Shown here: piece after piece, positions 23,913 to 38,161 of the stretch
How the letters are laid out: every line of letters starts with the position of its first letter
Numbering within the stretch: the stretch's first letter is position 1
Assembly (NCBI GenBank): GCA_964293155.1
Contig: CAXYYA010000028.1
Coordinates: 1-48,569 of the forward strand
Direction of reading: 5' to 3'
DNA length: 48,569 nt
Source: an uncultured Bacteroidales bacterium
GTDB taxonomy: Bacteria > Bacteroidota > Bacteroidia > Bacteroidales > Dysgonomonadaceae
Notes under the pieces: generated by a model
Told to the model about the DNA's origin: nothing
Databases searched by the model: none
What the model saw: the letters and a program-made list of their open reading frames with translations, nothing else
Position numbers and translations under genes: made by a program

Positions 23913-24743
23913 CTACAAAGGTATTAAGTAAAATGCCGACACGGAAAACCCTGAACTTACTTTATAATCGGCAGCGCTATCTTTCGTAAACGGGAAATTG
24001 AGCGAATATCCAAATTGCAGCTCAAAATTGCCCAAATTTACACTCAAGGGGAGAAACAGCTGGACGTTTAACAAGCCGAATACTTCCTCGGGAGTGGTTG
24101 CAAGGTTTATGGTTTCTTTGGCAAAATAGCCCGAAATTTCAGGGCCGAAATAAAAACGGTTGTTTTTCCCAAAATCTAAAAAATAAAAACCGGCAAAAAC
24201 GCTCGGACTGAGCGTATAGAATGTCTGACTCCCGAAAAGCAAATTGTTGGAGATACGTGCTCCATACCAGTCTTTTCGGTACGAAAGCGTTAAGTTGGCA
24301 TTGTTTTCATAGGGATAAATGGCTGTGGTGTCGGAATTGTAAATGAGACGGCTGTATGAACCGCTGGCTCTGAAGTGCTTGCTTTTATCCAGGTAAAGGC
24401 CGTATCCAAGCGTCAGCATTGTTGTGGTGTAGCCGGGCGAAAGCTGGTCGTACCATATTCCGGATGCTCCTGCAAAGAGTCCGTATTTGCTGAAATAATA
24501 AACGTGACCACTTACATTCGCTAAGTCGGTACCGATTTCTCTGCCTGCAAAGAACGTTTTATTATTGTAATTAAGGCCTGCGTACAAAAAGTCTTTCTTT
24601 TCACTAATTATTTCAGACAATAAAGTTTCATCACTAAATATCAAATCATTTAGTAATGAGTCAATTCTATCGGTTTGAGCGGCGGCTGAAATACCGTATA
24701 GAAGGAACAATATAAAGAATGCTTTTTTCATATGTTTATTCAT
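23913..24743 (-). CDS. Hypothetical outer-membrane beta-barrel protein
   Basis: 276 aa with a signal peptide (MKKAFFILFLLYGISAAAQ). Amphipathic beta-strands alternate with aromatic girdles. Alternative ATG at 24731. Confidence 0.55.
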   Translation of the reverse strand: MNKHMKKAFFILFLLYGISAAAQTDRIDSLLNDLIFSDETLLSEIISEKKDFLYAGLNYNNKTFFAGREIGTDLANVSGHVYYFSKYGLFAGASGIWYDQLSPGYTTTMLTLGYGLYLDKSKHFRASGSYSRLIYNSDTTAIYPYENNANLTLSYRKDWYGARISNNLLFGSQTFYTLSPSVFAGFYFLDFGKNNRFYFGPEISGYFAKETINLATTPEEVFGLLNVQLFLPLSVNLGNFELQFGYSLNFPFTKDSAADYKVSSGFSVSAFYLIPL

Positions 24744-24916
24744 TGATTTTTACATTATGGTCACATAGCTCATTCGAACGTACGAGAGAACACGCGTTTT
24801 AATTAATCCCCTGTTTCAAAATTATTCCGGTATGGCAGTTATTCCAATACCTTTAATAAAAACTTTTGAAAGAGCGTGAGCTCTTTCAAAAGTAATTTAA
24901 TTTTCATAATTAAGGT

Positions 24917-25558
24917 TTATTTGCCGCCACCTTTCATGCCGCCACCTTTTCCACCACCTTCGCCAAGCTGCTGCATTTGTTGCTGCATTTGCTGTTGCTG
25001 GCTGCCGGTAGATATATTCTGGTGTTCTCTGATTTGGTTGCGTTGTTGTTCCTTAACCTGTTCTTTGGTTTGCGTTGCAACTCCTTTGTTCAACCGGTTT
25101 TGATCTCTATACTGCAATTTCAGCATATTGCGTTGTTCTTCCGACAGAGAATTCATAAAGGCTTCTCTTTTTTCAGCTCTGGTCATCGTTTGGTTTTGAA
25201 GCAATTCAATTTGTTCGGGGGTAAGAGAGTTCTTGAATTGTTCGCGATTTCTCTGATTTACCATGCTCTGAATATCAGCATTTACCTGATTCCCTGTTGC
25301 TGAATGTAACCGATCCCGATCCCTCTGTTGCAATTGGTCAGCATCTTCAAGCGGATCGTGAATGCGGTCTCTTGTCTGGTCTTTCAACTGATCTTTCAGT
25401 TGATCTTTAGTTTGATCTTTGGTCTGATCTTTCAATTGATCCTTTTTTTCAATTTTGGTTTGGTCTTTTGCTCTTATAGGTGTGGTTTGAGCAAATGTAT
25501 TTGCGGCTAAAAAAAGAAAAGCTACAAATAAAACTCCGAAGATTGATTTTGTTTTCAT
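24917..25558 (-). CDS. Secreted LTXXQ-motif (Spy/CpxP/ZraP-like) periplasmic protein with an N-terminal KDQ[T/L] repeats and a Gly/Lys-rich tail
   Basis: Signal peptide, then (KDQx)n, then NSLTPEQIELLQ...REAFMNSLSEEQRNMLK (two LTXXQ motifs), then GGGKGGGMKGGGK. Confidence 0.65.
   Translation of the reverse strand: MKTKSIFGVLFVAFLFLAANTFAQTTPIRAKDQTKIEKKDQLKDQTKDQTKDQLKDQLKDQTRDRIHDPLEDADQLQQRDRDRLHSATGNQVNADIQSMVNQRNREQFKNSLTPEQIELLQNQTMTRAEKREAFMNSLSEEQRNMLKLQYRDQNRLNKGVATQTKEQVKEQQRNQIREHQNISTGSQQQQMQQQMQQLGEGGGKGGGMKGGGK
25375..25475. repeat. 12-bp tandem repeats (gatctttnnntt) encoding the KDQ[T/L] repeats
   Basis: tctttcaactgatctttcagttgatctttagtttgatctttggtctgatctttcaattgatcc. Confidence 0.5.
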
Positions 25559-25691
25559 AATTCTTGTTTTTAATAATTAATTCGTTTCCGTTTTGTATAA
25601 GATAACCGAACAAGTCTTGTAATACCCTACTTTTTTATTGAGATTTTTTCAATTAAATACTTTTTTTACTTTGAAAGGCGGTTCCAGCGGT

Positions 25692-36717: not shown

Positions 36718-37293
36718 TTATCTGGTTTCGTTCCAATCGCGTCCGTAGCGATGCCGGTATCCGCGTCCCATACCGAGACTGTCGGTTCGGTTATATCCGT
36801 ATCCGTACCCGCGACGGGCATTCACCGTTTCATCGCGATACAACGGTAGGAATGCTCTTTCTAATTGAGCGCACTGCGCGTCGTTGCACGCCGATTTTAT
36901 CTTCAGGTAGAAATCGTTTGTAAGCTTTTTCAGTTCTGCGTGATGATTTCCGATGTGATCCGATAACGCATTTAATTTTGTTTCGTCGGGTTTCGGTTTG
37001 TTCAACTCCATGAACATTTCGTTTTTCAGCGAATCCATTTCGTAAATCAGCAGGTTGGCACGGGGTTGAAATTCCCGGTTCGCTGCGCGAAAAACATCCA
37101 TCTGATCATTGTCGAATCCCAGCCTTTGCCGAAAATACCTTCCGGTGAGCGGGGGCTGGCCTTCGTCAATAACAATTGCTGTGTTATCGTCTTTTTCCTG
37201 CTGATTGTGATAGACGATAGTTCCGATGGTTGTCAGGTTCAGCACCACAAGCAGTGCAATTACCCACATCATTATTTTATTCGTCTTATTCAT
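36718..37293 (-). CDS. Membrane-anchored periplasmic protein, probably LTXXQ/Spy-CpxP-like (weak)
   Basis: 191 aa with a single N-terminal TM, helical LxxxQ-type segments (NDQMDVFRAANREF, ELKKLTNDFYLKI) and a Gly/Tyr/Arg-rich tail. It overlaps the anti-sigma gene by 8 bp. Confidence 0.45.
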   Translation of the reverse strand: MNKTNKIMMWVIALLVVLNLTTIGTIVYHNQQEKDDNTAIVIDEGQPPLTGRYFRQRLGFDNDQMDVFRAANREFQPRANLLIYEMDSLKNEMFMELNKPKPDETKLNALSDHIGNHHAELKKLTNDFYLKIKSACNDAQCAQLERAFLPLYRDETVNARRGYGYGYNRTDSLGMGRGYRHRYGRDWNETR

Positions 37294-37579
37294 AATCGTC
37301 GAAATTATAATAGCCTAAATTCTCGATCTGACTGTCGTTTATGTTCATCGTAAACTCGTGAGAAACGCTTTTCTGGTAACTGTTACCGATGCTTACGCCT
37401 AAAAATGCAACGGCAGCAAGGCTGGCAGCCACAACCACAGTTTGCCAAACGGGCGTTCTGCGACGCTCCGGTTGTTGCCTTTTTTCGATTTCGGCCATCA
37501 CCCGCGTACTCAGGAACGGATTATGTTCCGTTTGCTTTTCGCGTTTGATGAAATCGTCTATGTACTGTTCCGTTTTCAT
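37286..37579 (-). CDS. Small single-TM anti-sigma factor (putative)
   Basis: 97 aa with an N-terminal cytoplasmic helix, one TM (VVVAASLAAVAFLGVSIG) and a short periplasmic tail. It lies immediately downstream of the ECF sigma gene. Confidence 0.5.
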   Translation of the reverse strand: MKTEQYIDDFIKREKQTEHNPFLSTRVMAEIEKRQQPERRRTPVWQTVVVAASLAAVAFLGVSIGNSYQKSVSHEFTMNINDSQIENLGYYNFDDYE

Positions 37580-37615
37580 TTTTTGTTCGTTTTATAGGTT
37601 AGACATTTGTATTGA

Positions 37616-38161
37616 TTATTTCCTACGGTCATATTCTAATTTTTTTTGCAGAGTGCTTTTTGCACGTTGTAAAAGTTGTTCCACAGCGCCTTCCGATTTT
37701 TTCATGACGGCGGCAATTTCTTTCTGCGGTAATTCTTCGTATTTACTCAGGATGAAAGCTGTTCGTTGCGAATCGGGCAGGGAATTGATGGCGTTTTTTA
37801 TCCGCTTGTCCCGTTCCGATTGTTCCAATCGTTCCAACGGCGTCTTTTCCTCACTCTGTTTGTGAAAGATGTTTTCCAACGATTCCACCACGCGGTTCTT
37901 CTTTTTTCGATTCACAAAATTGATACTCGCGTTTACGGTAATCCGGTACAGCCATGTAACAAATTGGGCTTCGCCCTTGAAATCGGGCAACGATTGATAT
38001 ATTTTAATGAAAACTTCCTGCGTGATATCTTCCGCATCTGCTTTGGAGTGCACAAAACCCAACGTCGTTCGGAACACCATACCCTGGTATTTCTCCATAA
38101 GTTCTTTAAAGACAATGGTGTTACCTGAAATTATTTCTTGTATGAGTTGCTCGTCCGACAT
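37616..38161 (-). CDS. ECF-type RNA polymerase sigma-70 factor (copy 1)
   Basis: 181 aa with region 2 (DAEDITQEVFIKIY...FVTWLYRITVN) and region 4 (LPDSQRTAFILSKYEELPQKEIAAVMKKSEGAVEQLLQRA). Confidence 0.85.
   Translation of the reverse strand: MSDEQLIQEIISGNTIVFKELMEKYQGMVFRTTLGFVHSKADAEDITQEVFIKIYQSLPDFKGEAQFVTWLYRITVNASINFVNRKKKNRVVESLENIFHKQSEEKTPLERLEQSERDKRIKNAINSLPDSQRTAFILSKYEELPQKEIAAVMKKSEGAVEQLLQRAKSTLQKKLEYDRRK

What the first reader, a model, noticed from the sequence alone, without database searches (positions are those of the whole stretch)
23913..38161. A 14 kb co-directional ECF-sigma-controlled island combining LTXXQ periplasmic proteins, ferritin-like proteins, an M23 peptidase and a PqqD/ATP-grasp/decarboxylase triad
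Twenty-two consecutive minus-strand genes have short or overlapping junctions and are bounded by strong terminators at 23851-23892 and 36081-36108. The island contains two ECF sigma/anti-sigma pairs (38161-37286 and 27440-25692). It also contains three LTXXQ-type (Spy/CpxP/ZraP-like) proteins, a Ca-binding repeat protein, two secreted ferritin-like paralogs, a membrane M23 peptidase with an outer-membrane/TPR partner, and an embedded biosynthetic-looking triad. Such content usually marks an envelope or metal-stress regulon. The combination with a peptide- or carrier-dependent modification module is not something I recognise as described.
Basis: partly seen in the sequence, partly recalled or inferred. 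Interest (0 to 1): 0.75.

Follow-up and report, generated by a model that had tools for sequence, protein, structure and literature searches.

The report
Conserved Bacteroidota ligase–decarboxylase–channel-peptidase stress cassette
The 14 kb stretch is three separate units, and its core is an undescribed six-gene cassette found across Bacteroidota (peptide-binding helper, ATP-dependent ligase, decarboxylase, urea-channel fused to a peptidase, outer-membrane barrel, TPR protein) that sits under envelope or metal-stress regulators; what it makes is still unknown.

Summary
The genes are real and mostly correctly named, but there are 16 ORFs, not 22, and they form three units, not one island.

**Unit A (38214-36081).** An autoregulated ECF sigma operon: sigma, anti-sigma, an LTXXQ protein and a secreted 4x EF-hand-like Cys repeat protein. 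It has two identical promoters (CGTAGGAA-N15-GTCTAA) and ends in a terminator.

**Unit B (36025-27709).** Two optional DUF2202 ferritin-like genes, then a six-gene cassette:
- a PqqD-like protein;
- an ATP-grasp ligase of the amino-acid-ligase/PylC type;
- a FigC-like PLP decarboxylase;
- a complete urea-transporter fold fused to an M23 peptidase that is predicted to be cytoplasmic;
- an outer-membrane barrel;
- a TPR protein.

The cassette was invariant in every related locus long enough to judge (55/55, 43/43, 59-60/60). It abuts ECF sigma modules in Bacteroidales and some distant lineages, and LytS/LytTR systems elsewhere.

**Unit C (27440-23913).** A second sigma/FecR unit that never co-occurs with the cassette.

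No conserved precursor-peptide gene and no literature were found. My best mechanism, at low confidence, is stress-induced ligation, then decarboxylation of a side-chain-conjugated amino acid, then peptidase trimming and exit through the fused channel.

The parts
38186..38214 (-). P1: ECF-type promoter CGTAGGAA-N15-GTCTAA upstream of the sigma gene g01
   Evidence: Exact match. The same motif sits at the same position in 12 orthologous loci. About 4e-4 exact matches are expected by chance in the window (own arithmetic: 14 fixed bases, both strands).
37616..38161 (-). g01: ECF sigma factor (181 aa)
   Evidence: Pfam Sigma70_r2 and r4_2 hits. NCBIfam TIGR02937 is above its cut-off.
37599..37627 (-). 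P2: second exact copy of the ECF promoter, overlapping the 3' end of g01 and just upstream of g02
   Evidence: Exact match. The two-promoter layout is conserved in L003, L006, L010, L016, L018, L022 and L024.
37286..37579 (-). g02: single-pass anti-sigma factor (97 aa)
   Evidence: Assigned from its position, one transmembrane segment and a weak NCBIfam anti-sigma hit (E 1.6e-4). It co-occurs with g01 in related loci.
36718..37293 (-). g03: membrane-anchored periplasmic LTXXQ / Metal_resist (Spy/CpxP/ZraP-like) protein
   Evidence: Pfam PF13801 scores 30.4 against a cut-off of 29.2. Its start overlaps the end of g02 by 8 nt.
36124..36687 (-). g04: secreted protein with four NFVDxNxNGxCDNFExGTP (EF-hand/Excalibur-like, Cys-containing) repeats joined by Gly/Arg-rich linkers
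   Evidence: Sequence. The motif was found only in Bacteroidales loci, always just upstream of the cassette. A 117-nt tandem repeat is present. EF-hand hits are sub-threshold only.
36081..36108 (-). Intrinsic terminator after g04, weaker than the other two and possibly leaky
   Evidence: Hairpin dG -14.8 kcal/mol, z -4.7, followed by a U-tract. Equivalent hairpins occur in L010, L016, L018, L019 and L022, but not in L006 or L041.
35333..36025 (-). g05: DUF2202 ferritin-like lipoprotein; an optional accessory gene
   Evidence: Pfam DUF2202 at 1.4e-38. A lipobox (LFGC) is visible in the sequence. A DUF2202 gene fills this slot in 14 of 78 loci.
34720..35328 (-). g06: secreted DUF2202 / rubrerythrin-like paralogue
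   Evidence: Pfam hits. It shares 49% identity with g05.
34440..34685 (-). g07: PqqD-family (RiPP-recognition-element fold) protein of 81 aa; its end overlaps the start of g08 by 8 nt
   Evidence: Pfam PqqD scores 48.6 against a cut-off of 23.4. It is present upstream of the ATP-grasp gene in 70 of 72 loci. Alignment.
33392..34447 (-). g08: ATP-grasp ligase of the small-molecule amino-acid-ligase / PylC / PurD structural class
31950..33305 (-). g09: alanine-racemase-fold PLP decarboxylase of the FigC / SbnH / BtrK / MccE / DAPDC clade; not LysA
   Evidence: PDB matches: FigC 1e-54, M. jannaschii DAPDC 3e-43, BtrK 3e-27. It scores below the NCBIfam cut-offs for both LysA and FslC. The motifs C371-M372 and NxxFxxFWY are invariant, and there is no Arg or Asp specificity residue (residue logic from PMC7857480).
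29678..31819 (-). g10: inner-membrane fusion protein (713 aa): a complete urea-transporter fold (about aa 1-341), an M23 metallopeptidase (about 345-510) and an unknown beta-rich domain (about 520-713)
   Evidence: Pfam UT at 1.4e-44 and M23 at 1.5e-16. AF2 pLDDT 86.8. Foldseek TM-score to the D. vulgaris urea transporter (dvUT) is 0.77-0.83, and there are M23 hits. H365, D374, H449, H482 and H484 are invariant in 66 sequences. The ATG start at 31819 matches the 713-aa database proteins.
28311..29696 (-). g11: secreted 461-aa protein with an N-terminal TPR and a putative outer-membrane beta-barrel (C-terminus ...QWNF)
   Evidence: Signal peptide, weak TPR hit and aromatic C-terminus. It follows UT::M23 in 60 of 60 loci. 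The barrel is inferred, not modelled.
27709..28323 (-). g12: periplasmic TPR protein (204 aa, signal peptide)
   Evidence: Pfam TPR_1/2/8 hits. Present in 59 of 60 loci.
26958..27440 (-). g13: second ECF sigma factor (FecI-like); start of the unrelated unit C
   Evidence: Pfam and NCBIfam hits. No orthologue lies next to the cassette in any related locus other than copies of this same genome.
25692..26948 (-). g14: FecR-domain anti-sigma factor with a C-terminal LTXXQ-type extension
   Evidence: Pfam FecR at 1.2e-12. Its C-terminal region is paralogous to g15.
24917..25558 (-). g15: secreted low-complexity LTXXQ-type protein
   Evidence: Sequence. It shares 31% identity with the g14 C-terminus at E 7e-14. 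No Pfam hit.
24862..24893 (.). 14-bp palindromic hairpin / terminator between g15 and g16
   Evidence: dG -19.1, z -8.3.
23913..24743 (-). g16: secreted 276-aa protein of unknown family, possibly an outer-membrane protein
   Evidence: Signal peptide in the sequence. No Pfam or NCBIfam hit.
23851..23892 (-). Strong intrinsic terminator ending unit C
   Evidence: dG -24.8, z -7.0.

Best explanation
**Organisation (well supported).** The stretch holds three transcription units.
- **Unit A** is an autoregulated ECF sigma operon with two identical sigma-dependent promoters. It encodes the sigma factor, a single-pass anti-sigma factor, a Spy/ZraP-like LTXXQ periplasmic protein, and a secreted EF-hand-like, Cys-containing repeat protein.
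- **Unit B** holds two optional secreted ferritin-like DUF2202 proteins, then a six-gene cassette conserved throughout Bacteroidota, including the Kapaibacterium lineage.
- **Unit C** is an unrelated second sigma/FecR unit.

**Mechanism (inferred).**
1. Envelope or metal stress (possibly copper or redox stress) frees the sigma factor. Transcription starts at P1 and P2 and reads through the weak g04 terminator into unit B.
2. In the cytoplasm, the amino-acid-ligase-type ATP-grasp enzyme makes an amide bond to the side chain of an amino acid.
3. The FigC-like decarboxylase removes the alpha-carboxylate of that conjugated amino acid, as FigC, SbnH, BtrK and MccE do. The product is an aminoalkyl-amide, that is, an N-acyl-diamine-type molecule.
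4. The PqqD-like protein is translationally coupled to the ligase. It presents a peptide-like partner or tethers the enzymes together.
5. The cytoplasmic M23 domain trims or releases the product at the mouth of the fused urea-channel-type pore, and a small polar product leaves through that pore.
6. The TPR protein and the outer-membrane barrel handle it in the periplasm and outer membrane.

The product and its role (envelope protection or metal handling) are unknown.
For: **Units and promoters**
- Two exact promoter copies occur, only before g01 and g02. The layout is conserved in 7 or more loci.
- All three hairpins are real.
- g04 and PqqD are 31-37 nt apart with no hairpin in L006 and L041.

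**Cassette invariance**
- UT::M23 follows the decarboxylase in 55 of 55 loci.
- UT::M23 plus the TPR protein is present in 43 of 43 loci.
- PqqD lies before the ATP-grasp gene in 70 of 72 loci.
- The OMP and TPR genes follow UT::M23 in 60 and 59 of 60 loci.
- Two independent anchors gave the same result, and the cassette is also present in Kapaibacterium.

**Regulators**
- A sigma module lies upstream in 45 of 78 loci and LytTR in 14 of 78.
- A sigma/anti-sigma module also abuts PqqD in the distant loci L152, L163 and L166 and lies about 4.7 kb upstream in L158.
- Accessory genes in the same slot are copper or redox proteins: MbnP, MbnH, YHYH, SCO1 and DUF2202.

**Chemistry**
- The decarboxylase is closest to FigC. 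It shares FigC's Cys-Met and lacks the Arg/Asp residues that bind free basic or acidic side chains (PMC7857480).
- The ATP-grasp enzyme is closest in structure to L-amino-acid ligases and PylC.
- A sister clade of loci replaces the triad with an Orn/Lys/Arg decarboxylase plus a different ATP-grasp enzyme beside the same UT::M23-TPR-OMP genes. This parallels the 'decarboxylate first, or ligate first' alternatives documented for rhizoferrin (PMC7857480).

**Topology**
- The urea-transporter fold is complete.
- I count about 12 Lys/Arg on the loops I assign to the cytoplasmic side and about 4 on the periplasmic side, tallied by hand from the per-loop counts. The UT-B topology is from my own knowledge. 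Together these place the C-terminal M23 domain in the cytoplasm.
- The M23 catalytic His/Asp residues are invariant.
Against: - No substrate or product is known. Every chemical step is inferred by analogy.
- No conserved precursor or scaffold peptide gene exists near the cassette, so PqqD has no identified partner.
- The triad-free sister clade still keeps UT::M23. The peptidase-channel therefore does not strictly need PqqD.
- The sister-clade replacement looks like a single evolutionary event. Its members are 63-98% identical and form one clade, so it is weak evidence for functional equivalence.
- A urea-type pore is narrow and normally excludes charged amines (own knowledge).
- In this genome a terminator and no recognisable promoter motif lie between g04 and g05, so sigma dependence of the cassette is unproven.
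- The first zinc-ligand motif of M23 is atypical: H-x8-D instead of HxxxD (sequence reading).
- The copper link rests on two or three lineages only.
Confidence: 0.4

Rival explanations
1. A peptide (RiPP-like) pathway. PqqD binds a ribosomal precursor. The ATP-grasp enzyme and the decarboxylase tailor it. M23 removes the leader, perhaps at Gly-rich sites. In Bacteroidales the precursor would be g04, a signal-peptide-bearing multi-repeat Cys protein. It would be modified before Sec export and work as a periplasmic metal-binding peptide, by analogy with the bufferins (recalled from memory, not tested here).
For: - A PqqD/RRE protein is translationally coupled to the ligase.
- g04 lies immediately upstream of PqqD in 44 of 78 loci, and does so even where the sigma module is missing (L014, L026, L103, L104).
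- g04 is followed by a weak terminator, as is typical of highly expressed structural or precursor genes.
- g04 has repeats with D/E/K/C residues and Gly-rich linkers that an M23 enzyme could cut.
- Two members of the decarboxylase clade, MccE and BtrK, act on peptide- or protein-tethered substrates.
Against: - g04 is absent from all Flavobacteriia, Chitinophagia, Sphingobacteriia and Kapaibacterium cassettes.
- No other conserved small ORF exists next to the cassette.
- The 63-72% identity of the enzymes across classes fits a fixed small substrate better than variable peptides.
Confidence: 0.15
2. A cell-wall remodelling module. The M23 domain cuts peptidoglycan in the periplasm together with the TPR protein and the outer-membrane barrel. 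The cytoplasmic ligase and the DAP-decarboxylase-like enzyme alter peptidoglycan precursors, in a VanA/VanX-like logic, under envelope stress.
For: - The nearest structural relatives of the M23 domain are peptidoglycan enzymes and their activators: DipM, Csd1/2, lysostaphin, ShyA and EnvC.
- The regulators are envelope-stress types: ECF sigma with a Spy-like protein, or LytS/LytTR.
- Kapaibacterium has an extra secreted triple-M23 protein next to the cassette.
Against: - The fold and the positive-inside count place M23 in the cytoplasm.
- The decarboxylase lacks the DAP-binding Arg and the acidic residue after the catalytic Cys, and it scores below the LysA cut-off.
- This model gives no role to PqqD or to the urea-type channel.
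Confidence: 0.15
3. A metallophore pathway. The ligase and the decarboxylase build a small carboxylate/amine chelator, analogous to citryl-ornithine going to citryl-putrescine in rhizoferrin synthesis. It is exported to handle copper or another metal in the periplasm. This is a more specific version of the best explanation, with a defined product role.
For: - The decarboxylase is closest to the siderophore enzyme FigC.
- Accessory genes in the same operon slot are metal or redox proteins: MbnP, MbnH, YHYH, SCO1/SenC, DUF2202 ferritin-like proteins, LTXXQ 'heavy-metal resistance' proteins, and a Cys/Asp-rich repeat protein.
Against: - No NIS synthetase, TonB-dependent receptor or uptake transporter is conserved with the cassette.
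- The specificity helix is aromatic (FxxFWY). It does not carry the polar residues FigC uses to bind citrate.
- Copper genes appear in only a few lineages.
- The model does not explain PqqD or the M23 domain.
Confidence: 0.2
4. No functional unit. The genes are neighbours by chance or by inherited synteny, and each acts independently: a urea transporter, a housekeeping LysA paralogue, and a stray ATP-grasp enzyme.
For: - Database names treat them separately: 'urea transporter', 'carbamoyl-phosphate synthase-like', 'diaminopimelate decarboxylase'.
- No experiment links them.
Against: - Gene order and overlaps are invariant across orders and classes, at UT::M23 identities down to 33-45%.
- Start/stop overlaps occur at three junctions: g07/g08, g10/g11 and g11/g12.
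- The decarboxylase is not LysA by score or by active-site residues.
Confidence: 0.05

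Closest known systems
Butirosin side-chain pathway BtrI / BtrJ / BtrK (Bacillus circulans)
   Same: A small helper protein, an ATP-grasp ligase and an alanine-racemase-fold PLP decarboxylase of the same clade act in sequence. The amino acid is tethered through its side chain, and its alpha-carboxylate is then removed (BtrK matches g09 at E 3e-27; the pathway is described in PMC7857480).
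   Different: BtrI is a phosphopantetheinyl acyl carrier protein, whereas g07 is a PqqD/RRE-fold protein. There is no aminoglycoside context here. The Btr pathway has no UT::M23, barrel or TPR partners and no stress regulators.
Rhizoferrin pathway FigA/FigC (FslA/FslC) and its relatives SbnH and AcsE
   Same: FigC is the closest solved relative of g09 (E 1e-54). Both have Cys-Met after the catalytic loop and lack the residues that bind a free side chain. The logic is 'ligate, then decarboxylate the conjugate'. A sister clade appears to use 'decarboxylate, then ligate', as Ralstonia does for rhizoferrin.
   Different: The ligase here is an ATP-grasp enzyme, not an NIS (IucA/IucC) synthetase. 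g09 scores 218 bits against an FslC cut-off of 500. Its specificity helix is aromatic, not Thr/Tyr-polar. No siderophore uptake genes are present.
Pyrrolysine ligase PylC and the L-amino-acid ligases (BL00235, BacD, RizA)
   Different: Sequence identity is only 13-17%. The substrate pocket was not analysed. None of these enzymes works with a PqqD protein.
Discrete PqqD / RRE proteins of RiPP pathways (PqqD-PqqE, lasso B1)
   Same: g07 passes the Pfam PqqD cut-off. It is a stand-alone protein of about 80 aa, translationally coupled to its enzyme partner.
   Different: No precursor peptide gene is conserved nearby. The partner is an ATP-grasp ligase of the small-molecule class. It is not a radical-SAM enzyme, a protease or a cyclodehydratase.
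ECF sigma / anti-sigma modules with Spy/CpxP/ZraP-type LTXXQ proteins, and ECF-regulated periplasmic metal-binding peptides such as bufferins (own knowledge)
   Same: Unit A is an autoregulated sigma, a membrane anti-sigma and an LTXXQ periplasmic protein, followed by a secreted Cys-containing small protein.
   Different: The inducing signal has not been determined. g04 is a 4x EF-hand-like repeat protein. It has no MNIO or DUF2063 partner genes and is confined to Bacteroidales.
Peptidase-containing exporters (PCAT ABC transporters with a C39 domain)
   Same: The idea of fusing a cytoplasmic processing peptidase to the membrane conduit is shared.
   Different: Here the conduit is a passive urea-channel fold, not an ABC transporter, and the peptidase is a zinc M23 enzyme, not a cysteine C39 enzyme. 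Whether anything is exported is unknown. This is an analogy only.

Membership tests
RiPP biosynthetic gene cluster | A precursor peptide gene encoded in or beside the cluster | tested here: not met
   I clustered all ORFs of 12-90 aa within 900 nt of the cassette ends in the type-1 loci. This recovered only frame-shadows of g04, DUF2202 and LytTR genes. There are no internal gaps that could hold a gene in L083. g04 is a candidate only in Bacteroidales.
RiPP biosynthetic gene cluster | A RiPP recognition element (PqqD-like) partnered with a tailoring enzyme | tested here: met
   Pfam PqqD scores 48.6 bits against a cut-off of 23.4. The g07 stop overlaps the g08 start. They co-occur in 70 of 72 loci.
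Graspetide (omega-ester peptide) pathway | An ATP-grasp macrocyclase of the MdnB/MdnC/PsnB/CdnC type | tested here: not met
Butirosin-type carrier-dependent Glu ligation and decarboxylation (BtrI/J/K) | A phosphopantetheinyl acyl carrier protein as the tether | tested here: not met
   The small protein is PqqD-fold, and no PP-binding or ACP hit was found.
Butirosin-type carrier-dependent Glu ligation and decarboxylation (BtrI/J/K) | An ATP-grasp ligase adjacent to an AR-fold PLP decarboxylase of the DAPDC/BtrK clade | tested here: met
   Shown (BtrK at E 3e-27).
Amino-group carrier protein system (LysW/LysX) | A LysW-type zinc-ribbon carrier with a C-terminal EDWGE tail and a RimK/LysX-type ligase | tested here: not met
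meso-Diaminopimelate decarboxylase (LysA) | A score above the TIGR01048 cut-off, plus the Arg on the specificity helix and an acidic residue after the catalytic Cys that bind the distal centre of DAP | tested here: not met
   g09 scores 223 bits against a cut-off of 297.9. M. jannaschii R343 aligns to a variable Thr. The motif is Cys371-Met372, not Cys-Glu/Asp (residue roles from PMC7857480).
N-citrylornithine decarboxylase (FslC/FigC) | A score above the NF041039 cut-off, and an adjacent NIS synthetase | tested here: not met
   g09 scores 217.6 bits against a cut-off of 500. No IucA/IucC-type gene occurs in the window or in related loci. g09 shares Cys-Met and the Thr/Tyr positions only in part.
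Urea transporter (UT / Yut) | A complete 10-TM urea-transporter fold | tested here: met
   Pfam UT scores 152.9 bits. Foldseek TM-score to the D. vulgaris urea transporter (dvUT) is 0.77-0.83 over 308-333 columns.
Urea transporter (UT / Yut) | Equivalog-level similarity to characterised bacterial urea transporters, and actual urea transport | tested here: not met
   TIGR03441 scores 98.5 bits against a cut-off of 274.6. Identity to the solved transporters is about 20%. Transport itself cannot be tested with these tools.
M23 (LytM/lysostaphin) metallopeptidase | The M23 fold with the catalytic/zinc residues HxxxD ... H ... HxH | tested here: inconclusive
   The fold and Pfam match are met. H449 and H482-x-H484 are invariant. 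The first motif is H365-x8-D374 rather than HxxxD.
M23 peptidoglycan hydrolase | A catalytic domain located outside the cytoplasm | tested here: not met
   The domain follows the last transmembrane helix of a complete urea-transporter fold. I count about 12 Lys/Arg on the loops I assign to the cytoplasmic side and about 4 on the periplasmic side, tallied by hand from the per-loop counts. The UT-B termini being cytoplasmic is from my own knowledge. This is a prediction, not an experiment.
ECF sigma / anti-sigma regulon | An autoregulated sigma-dependent promoter shared by the sigma gene and its target genes | tested here: met
   Two exact copies of CGTAGGAA-N15-GTCTAA lie before g01 and g02 and are conserved across loci. 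This feature is not met for g05-g12: no copy lies upstream of them.
EF-hand / Excalibur calcium-binding proteins | A significant match to an EF-hand or Excalibur model | tested here: not met
   g04 gives only an EF-hand_1 hit at E 0.4. The 12-residue DxDxDGxCDxxE pattern is visible by eye in all four repeats.

The most novel reading that the evidence does not exclude
The cassette is a new kind of stress-induced cytoplasm-to-outer-membrane pathway.
- An RRE-fold protein has been co-opted as an adaptor with no precursor peptide. It may dock on the ligase's invariant, disordered tail ...FEKISTxGE[LMK]-COOH.
- With this adaptor, an amino-acid ligase and a conjugate decarboxylase build a previously unknown small amide or polyamine-type metabolite.
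- A cytoplasmic M23 peptidase releases the metabolite directly into a fused urea-channel pore. This would be a new release-and-export principle.
- The metabolite would protect the envelope or handle copper across Bacteroidota.
Probability: 0.2. Interest if true: 0.85.

Novelty: new variant of a known kind. Interest (0 to 1): 0.6.

Why it matters
- **Breadth.** The scan for the channel-peptidase fusion confirmed relatives at 150 places in the collection of species-representative genomes, of which the best 80 were kept as distinct loci. More than 2,000 protein clusters match it, and 427 metagenome stretches encode a relative of the ligase. The lineages include gut, digester, freshwater and marine Bacteroidota. 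I found no publication on it.
- **Unusual enzyme pairings.** Three parts are not known to work together: a PqqD protein with no visible precursor, a small-molecule ATP-grasp ligase, and a FigC-type decarboxylase.
- **An unusual fusion.** The urea-channel / M23 fusion has a predicted cytoplasmic peptidase, which is very unusual for that family.
- **A direct experimental route.** The cassette is wired to envelope or metal-stress regulators. Inducing the sigma factor and comparing metabolomes could reveal a new Bacteroidota metabolite or envelope-defence mechanism.
- **Annotation errors.** Current annotation is misleading. 'Urea transporter', 'diaminopimelate decarboxylase' and 'carbamoyl-phosphate synthase-like' are probably all wrong.

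Tried and rejected
- **Single 22-gene island.** Rejected: there are 16 ORFs, internal terminators, and a second sigma unit that never co-occurs.
- **Graspetide or microviridin-type pathway.** Rejected on structure.
- **LysA.** Rejected on score and active-site residues.
- **Hidden precursor peptide.** I searched small ORFs around the cassette in the type-1 loci and found nothing conserved.
- **g04 as the universal substrate.** Rejected: the motif occurs only in Bacteroidales.
- **PqqD C-terminal tail as a LysW-like attachment site.** The tail is acidic but variable, so this is not pursued.
- **Riboswitch or sRNA clue to the ligand.** There are no Rfam hits.
- **Sigma-dependent promoter in front of the DUF2202 genes or PqqD.** None found in the window or in related loci.
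- **Literature.** Eight full-text searches (seven on combinations of PqqD, ATP-grasp, M23, urea transporter, decarboxylase and RRE-Finder; one, for the FslC paper) and two targeted paper reads found no description.
- **Protein searches.** All three word-indexed searches filled up with close orthologues (at least 42%, 68% and 74% identical among the 120 listed). They gave no functional names beyond generic ones.
- **Mobile-element origin.** Rejected: the flanks are housekeeping genes and composition is ordinary.

Full report
**What is in the window**

Between 23913 and 38161 the minus strand carries 16 ORFs of at least 50 aa, not 22. A metagenome gene caller adds only one dubious 33-aa ORF. Pfam and NCBIfam give the following.

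| Gene | Assignment |
|---|---|
| g01 | ECF sigma factor |
| g02 | short single-pass anti-sigma factor |
| g03 | LTXXQ / Metal_resist protein |
| g04 | secreted protein with four NFVDxNxNGxCDNFExGTP repeats |
| g05, g06 | DUF2202 / rubrerythrin-like, 49% identical to each other |
| g07 | PqqD-like protein |
| g08 | ATP-grasp ligase |
| g09 | Orn/DAP/Arg-type PLP decarboxylase |
| g10 | urea-transporter domain fused to M23 peptidase |
| g11 | 461-aa secreted protein with one TPR and an OMP-like C-terminus |
| g12 | TPR protein |
| g13 | second ECF sigma factor |
| g14 | FecR anti-sigma factor |
| g15 | low-complexity secreted protein |
| g16 | unknown secreted protein |

The flanks are housekeeping genes (Ffh, FolD, HisRS) plus SusC/D-like outer-membrane genes, and composition is ordinary. 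The nearest database proteins come from Petrimonas and Proteiniphilum metagenome-assembled genomes. This is a chromosomal region of a Dysgonomonadaceae bacterium, not a mobile island.

**Transcription units**

All three hairpins are real terminators by folding:
- after g04, 36081-36108, -14.8 kcal/mol, z -4.7;
- between g15 and g16, 24862-24893, -19.1 kcal/mol, z -8.3;
- after g16, 23851-23892, -24.8 kcal/mol, z -7.0.

Aligning the regions upstream of the sigma gene in 12 orthologous loci exposed a conserved ECF-type promoter, CGTAGGAA-N15-GTCTAA. The window holds exactly two perfect copies:
- one lies before g01 (38186-38214);
- one overlaps the end of g01, just before g02 (37599-37627).

About 4e-4 exact matches are expected by chance (own arithmetic). 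The same two-promoter layout recurs in L003, L006, L010, L016, L018, L022 and L024. No copy lies before the DUF2202 genes or PqqD in any locus.

Unit A (g01-g04) is therefore an autoregulated sigma operon. In this genome unit B (g05-g12) starts only 55 nt after a comparatively weak terminator and has no recognisable promoter of its own. In L006 and L041 the g04 stop and the PqqD start are 31-37 nt apart with no hairpin. Read-through control by the sigma factor is plausible but has not been shown.

I used two independent anchors.
- The UT::M23 protein, searched in the species-representative genomes, gave 80 loci.
- The ATP-grasp protein, searched in metagenome contigs, gave a further 80 loci.

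- PqqD lies upstream of the ATP-grasp gene in 70 of 72 loci.
- UT::M23 lies downstream of the decarboxylase in 55 of 55 loci.
- UT::M23 plus the TPR protein is present in 43 of 43 loci.
- The barrel and TPR genes follow UT::M23 in 60 and 59 of 60 loci.

The six-gene order PqqD, ATP-grasp, decarboxylase, UT::M23, barrel, TPR holds in loci labelled Bacteroidales, Flavobacteriales, Chitinophagales and Sphingobacteriia/Sphingobacteriaceae, and in a Kapaibacterium genome. It holds at UT::M23 identities down to 33-45%. The ligase and decarboxylase stay 63-76% identical over the same range.

The upstream regulator varies. Many metagenome loci are redundant, so these counts overstate independence.
- A sigma / anti-sigma / LTXXQ module lies upstream in 45 of 78 loci. 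These include the distant lineages L152, L163 and L166, where it abuts PqqD directly, and L158, where it lies about 4.7 kb upstream.
- A LytS-type kinase with a LytTR regulator lies upstream in 14 of 78 loci.
- g04 is confined to Bacteroidales. There it stays next to PqqD even when the sigma module is missing (L014, L026, L103, L104).
- DUF2202 is an optional insert in the same slot, in 14 of 78 loci.
- Other lineages carry copper or redox genes there: MbnP, MbnH (a di-haem peroxidase) and YHYH in L158; YHYH and SCO1/SenC in L040 and L045.
- g13-g16 never accompany the cassette.

**The enzymes**

*Decarboxylase (g09).* It scores below the NCBIfam cut-offs for both LysA and FslC. Its best solved relatives are FigC/FslC, the N-citrylornithine decarboxylase (1e-54), then M. 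jannaschii DAPDC (3e-43) and BtrK (3e-27).

The FigC paper (PMC7857480) explains which residues matter.
- Enzymes for free basic or acidic side chains carry an Asp or Arg on the specificity helix.
- They also carry an acidic residue after the catalytic Cys.
- FigC has Met after that Cys instead.
- The FigC / SbnH / AcsE / MccE / BtrK clade acts on amino acids conjugated through their side chain to citrate, a peptide-nucleotide or a carrier protein.

g09 has an invariant Cys371-Met372. It has no Arg at the DAPDC R343 position. Its helix motif NxxFxxFWY is invariant and aromatic. I therefore read g09 as a decarboxylase for a side-chain-conjugated amino acid, not as LysA.

- LysX and RimK, about 17;
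- graspetide cyclases, only 12-14.

The ligase is therefore of the small-molecule ligase class.

*PqqD-like protein (g07).* It is a bona fide PqqD-fold protein, and its stop overlaps the ligase start. I found no conserved small ORF anywhere near the cassette.

**The membrane protein (g10)**

The AF2 model has pLDDT 86.8. Foldseek matches the whole D. vulgaris urea transporter (dvUT) at a TM-score of 0.77-0.83, and the following domain matches M23 enzymes.

Several lines of evidence place the M23 domain in the cytoplasm:
- the two-fold internal repeat of the helices;
- the UT signature motifs, LTLPF at 116-120 and YTLSF at 289-293;
- the Lys/Arg distribution, which I tally by hand from the per-loop counts as about 12 on the side of the termini and about 4 on the other side;
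- the known cytoplasmic termini of UT-B (own knowledge).

Together these put the C-terminus of the channel, and hence the M23 and beta domains, in the cytoplasm. This is a prediction.

The catalytic residues H449 and H482-x-H484 are invariant in 66 sequences. The first zinc motif is an unusual H365-x8-D374.

**A sister architecture**

Thirty-five genome loci form one UT::M23 clade (63-98% identical to each other) that lacks the PqqD triad. The TPR and barrel genes are in swapped order there. Divergently adjacent lie three genes:
- a VOC-like 145-aa protein;
- a 913-aa Orn/Lys/Arg decarboxylase (OKR_DC_1);
- a PRK06524 'biotin-carboxylase-like' ATP-grasp enzyme.

A decarboxylase and an ATP-grasp enzyme again sit beside the same membrane genes. 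This fits the idea that the same class of product can be made by decarboxylating first and ligating second, as documented for rhizoferrin. Because this looks like one evolutionary event, it counts only modestly.

**Interpretation**

The organisation is well supported: three units, a conserved six-gene cassette, and stress-type regulators.

The mechanism I commit to is inference by analogy. The steps are stress induction, ATP-grasp ligation to an amino-acid side chain, and decarboxylation of the conjugate to an aminoalkyl-amide. PqqD acts as an adaptor, and the cytoplasmic M23 domain trims the product at the mouth of the fused channel. The TPR protein and the barrel then handle it in the periplasm and outer membrane. 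I give the whole statement 0.4.

I keep four rivals:
- a g04-based peptide pathway, bufferin-like (0.15);
- peptidoglycan remodelling (0.15);
- a metallophore version of the best explanation (0.2);
- no functional unit (0.05).

**Comparison with known systems and novelty**

The closest known logic is BtrI/J/K and FigA/FigC, but the defining features are missing: there is no ACP carrier, no NIS synthetase and no equivalog-level score. The cassette also fails the tests for a classical RiPP cluster (no precursor), a graspetide pathway, a LysW system, LysA and a canonical urea transporter (see the membership table).

Unit A is an ordinary ECF / Spy-like module. No paper in the searchable library mentions the combination, and Rfam gives nothing.

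I rate it a new variant of known kinds of enzyme logic, set in an undescribed, widely conserved architecture. Interest is 0.6.

Noticed in passing
window 25692-26948 (g14) and 24917-25558 (g15): The periplasmic C-terminal region of the FecR-type anti-sigma factor (aa 246-391) is paralogous to the adjacent secreted protein g15 (31% identity, E 7e-14). Both carry LTXXQ-type motifs. A free copy of the sensor domain next to the anti-sigma factor suggests a decoy or partner relationship.
   Followed up: partly
window 33392-33436 (C-terminus of g08) and alignment A3: Every ATP-grasp orthologue ends in an invariant tail [ED]FEKISTxGE[LMK]-COOH, and this tail has low model confidence. It is a candidate docking peptide for the PqqD protein, or even a self-substrate. 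This is untested.
   Followed up: no
L158 5363-8534; L040 5009-7036; L045: In other lineages the slot between the regulator and PqqD holds copper or redox genes: MbnP, MbnH (a di-haem cytochrome c peroxidase), YHYH and SCO1/SenC. This hints that the regulon deals with copper or oxidative stress in the periplasm.
   Followed up: partly
L033-L080 (35 'type-2' loci), L086: A highly conserved divergent trio lies beside UT::M23 in a clade that lacks the PqqD triad: a VOC-like 145-aa protein, a 913-aa OKR_DC_1 decarboxylase with a roughly 280-aa N-terminal extension, and a PRK06524 ATP-grasp enzyme. Its function is unknown.
   Followed up: partly
L083 6696-9740 (Kapaibacterium): A 1014-aa secreted protein with three M23 domains and a T9SS sorting domain lies 20 nt upstream of PqqD in the Kapaibacterium cassette.
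   Followed up: no
window 24862-24893: A perfect 14-bp palindromic hairpin lies between g15 and g16.
   Followed up: yes
window 29678-31870: The longest ORF for g10 starts at a TTG (730 aa). Database orthologues and the metagenome gene call use the ATG at 31819 (713 aa).
   Followed up: yes
window 38321-43191: Beyond the sigma gene lie an Mfa-like fimbrial protein (with DUF6359), a FemAB-family protein and a TonB-dependent receptor. These come from precomputed Pfam on the identical metagenome contig L001. They are not conserved with the cassette.
   Followed up: no
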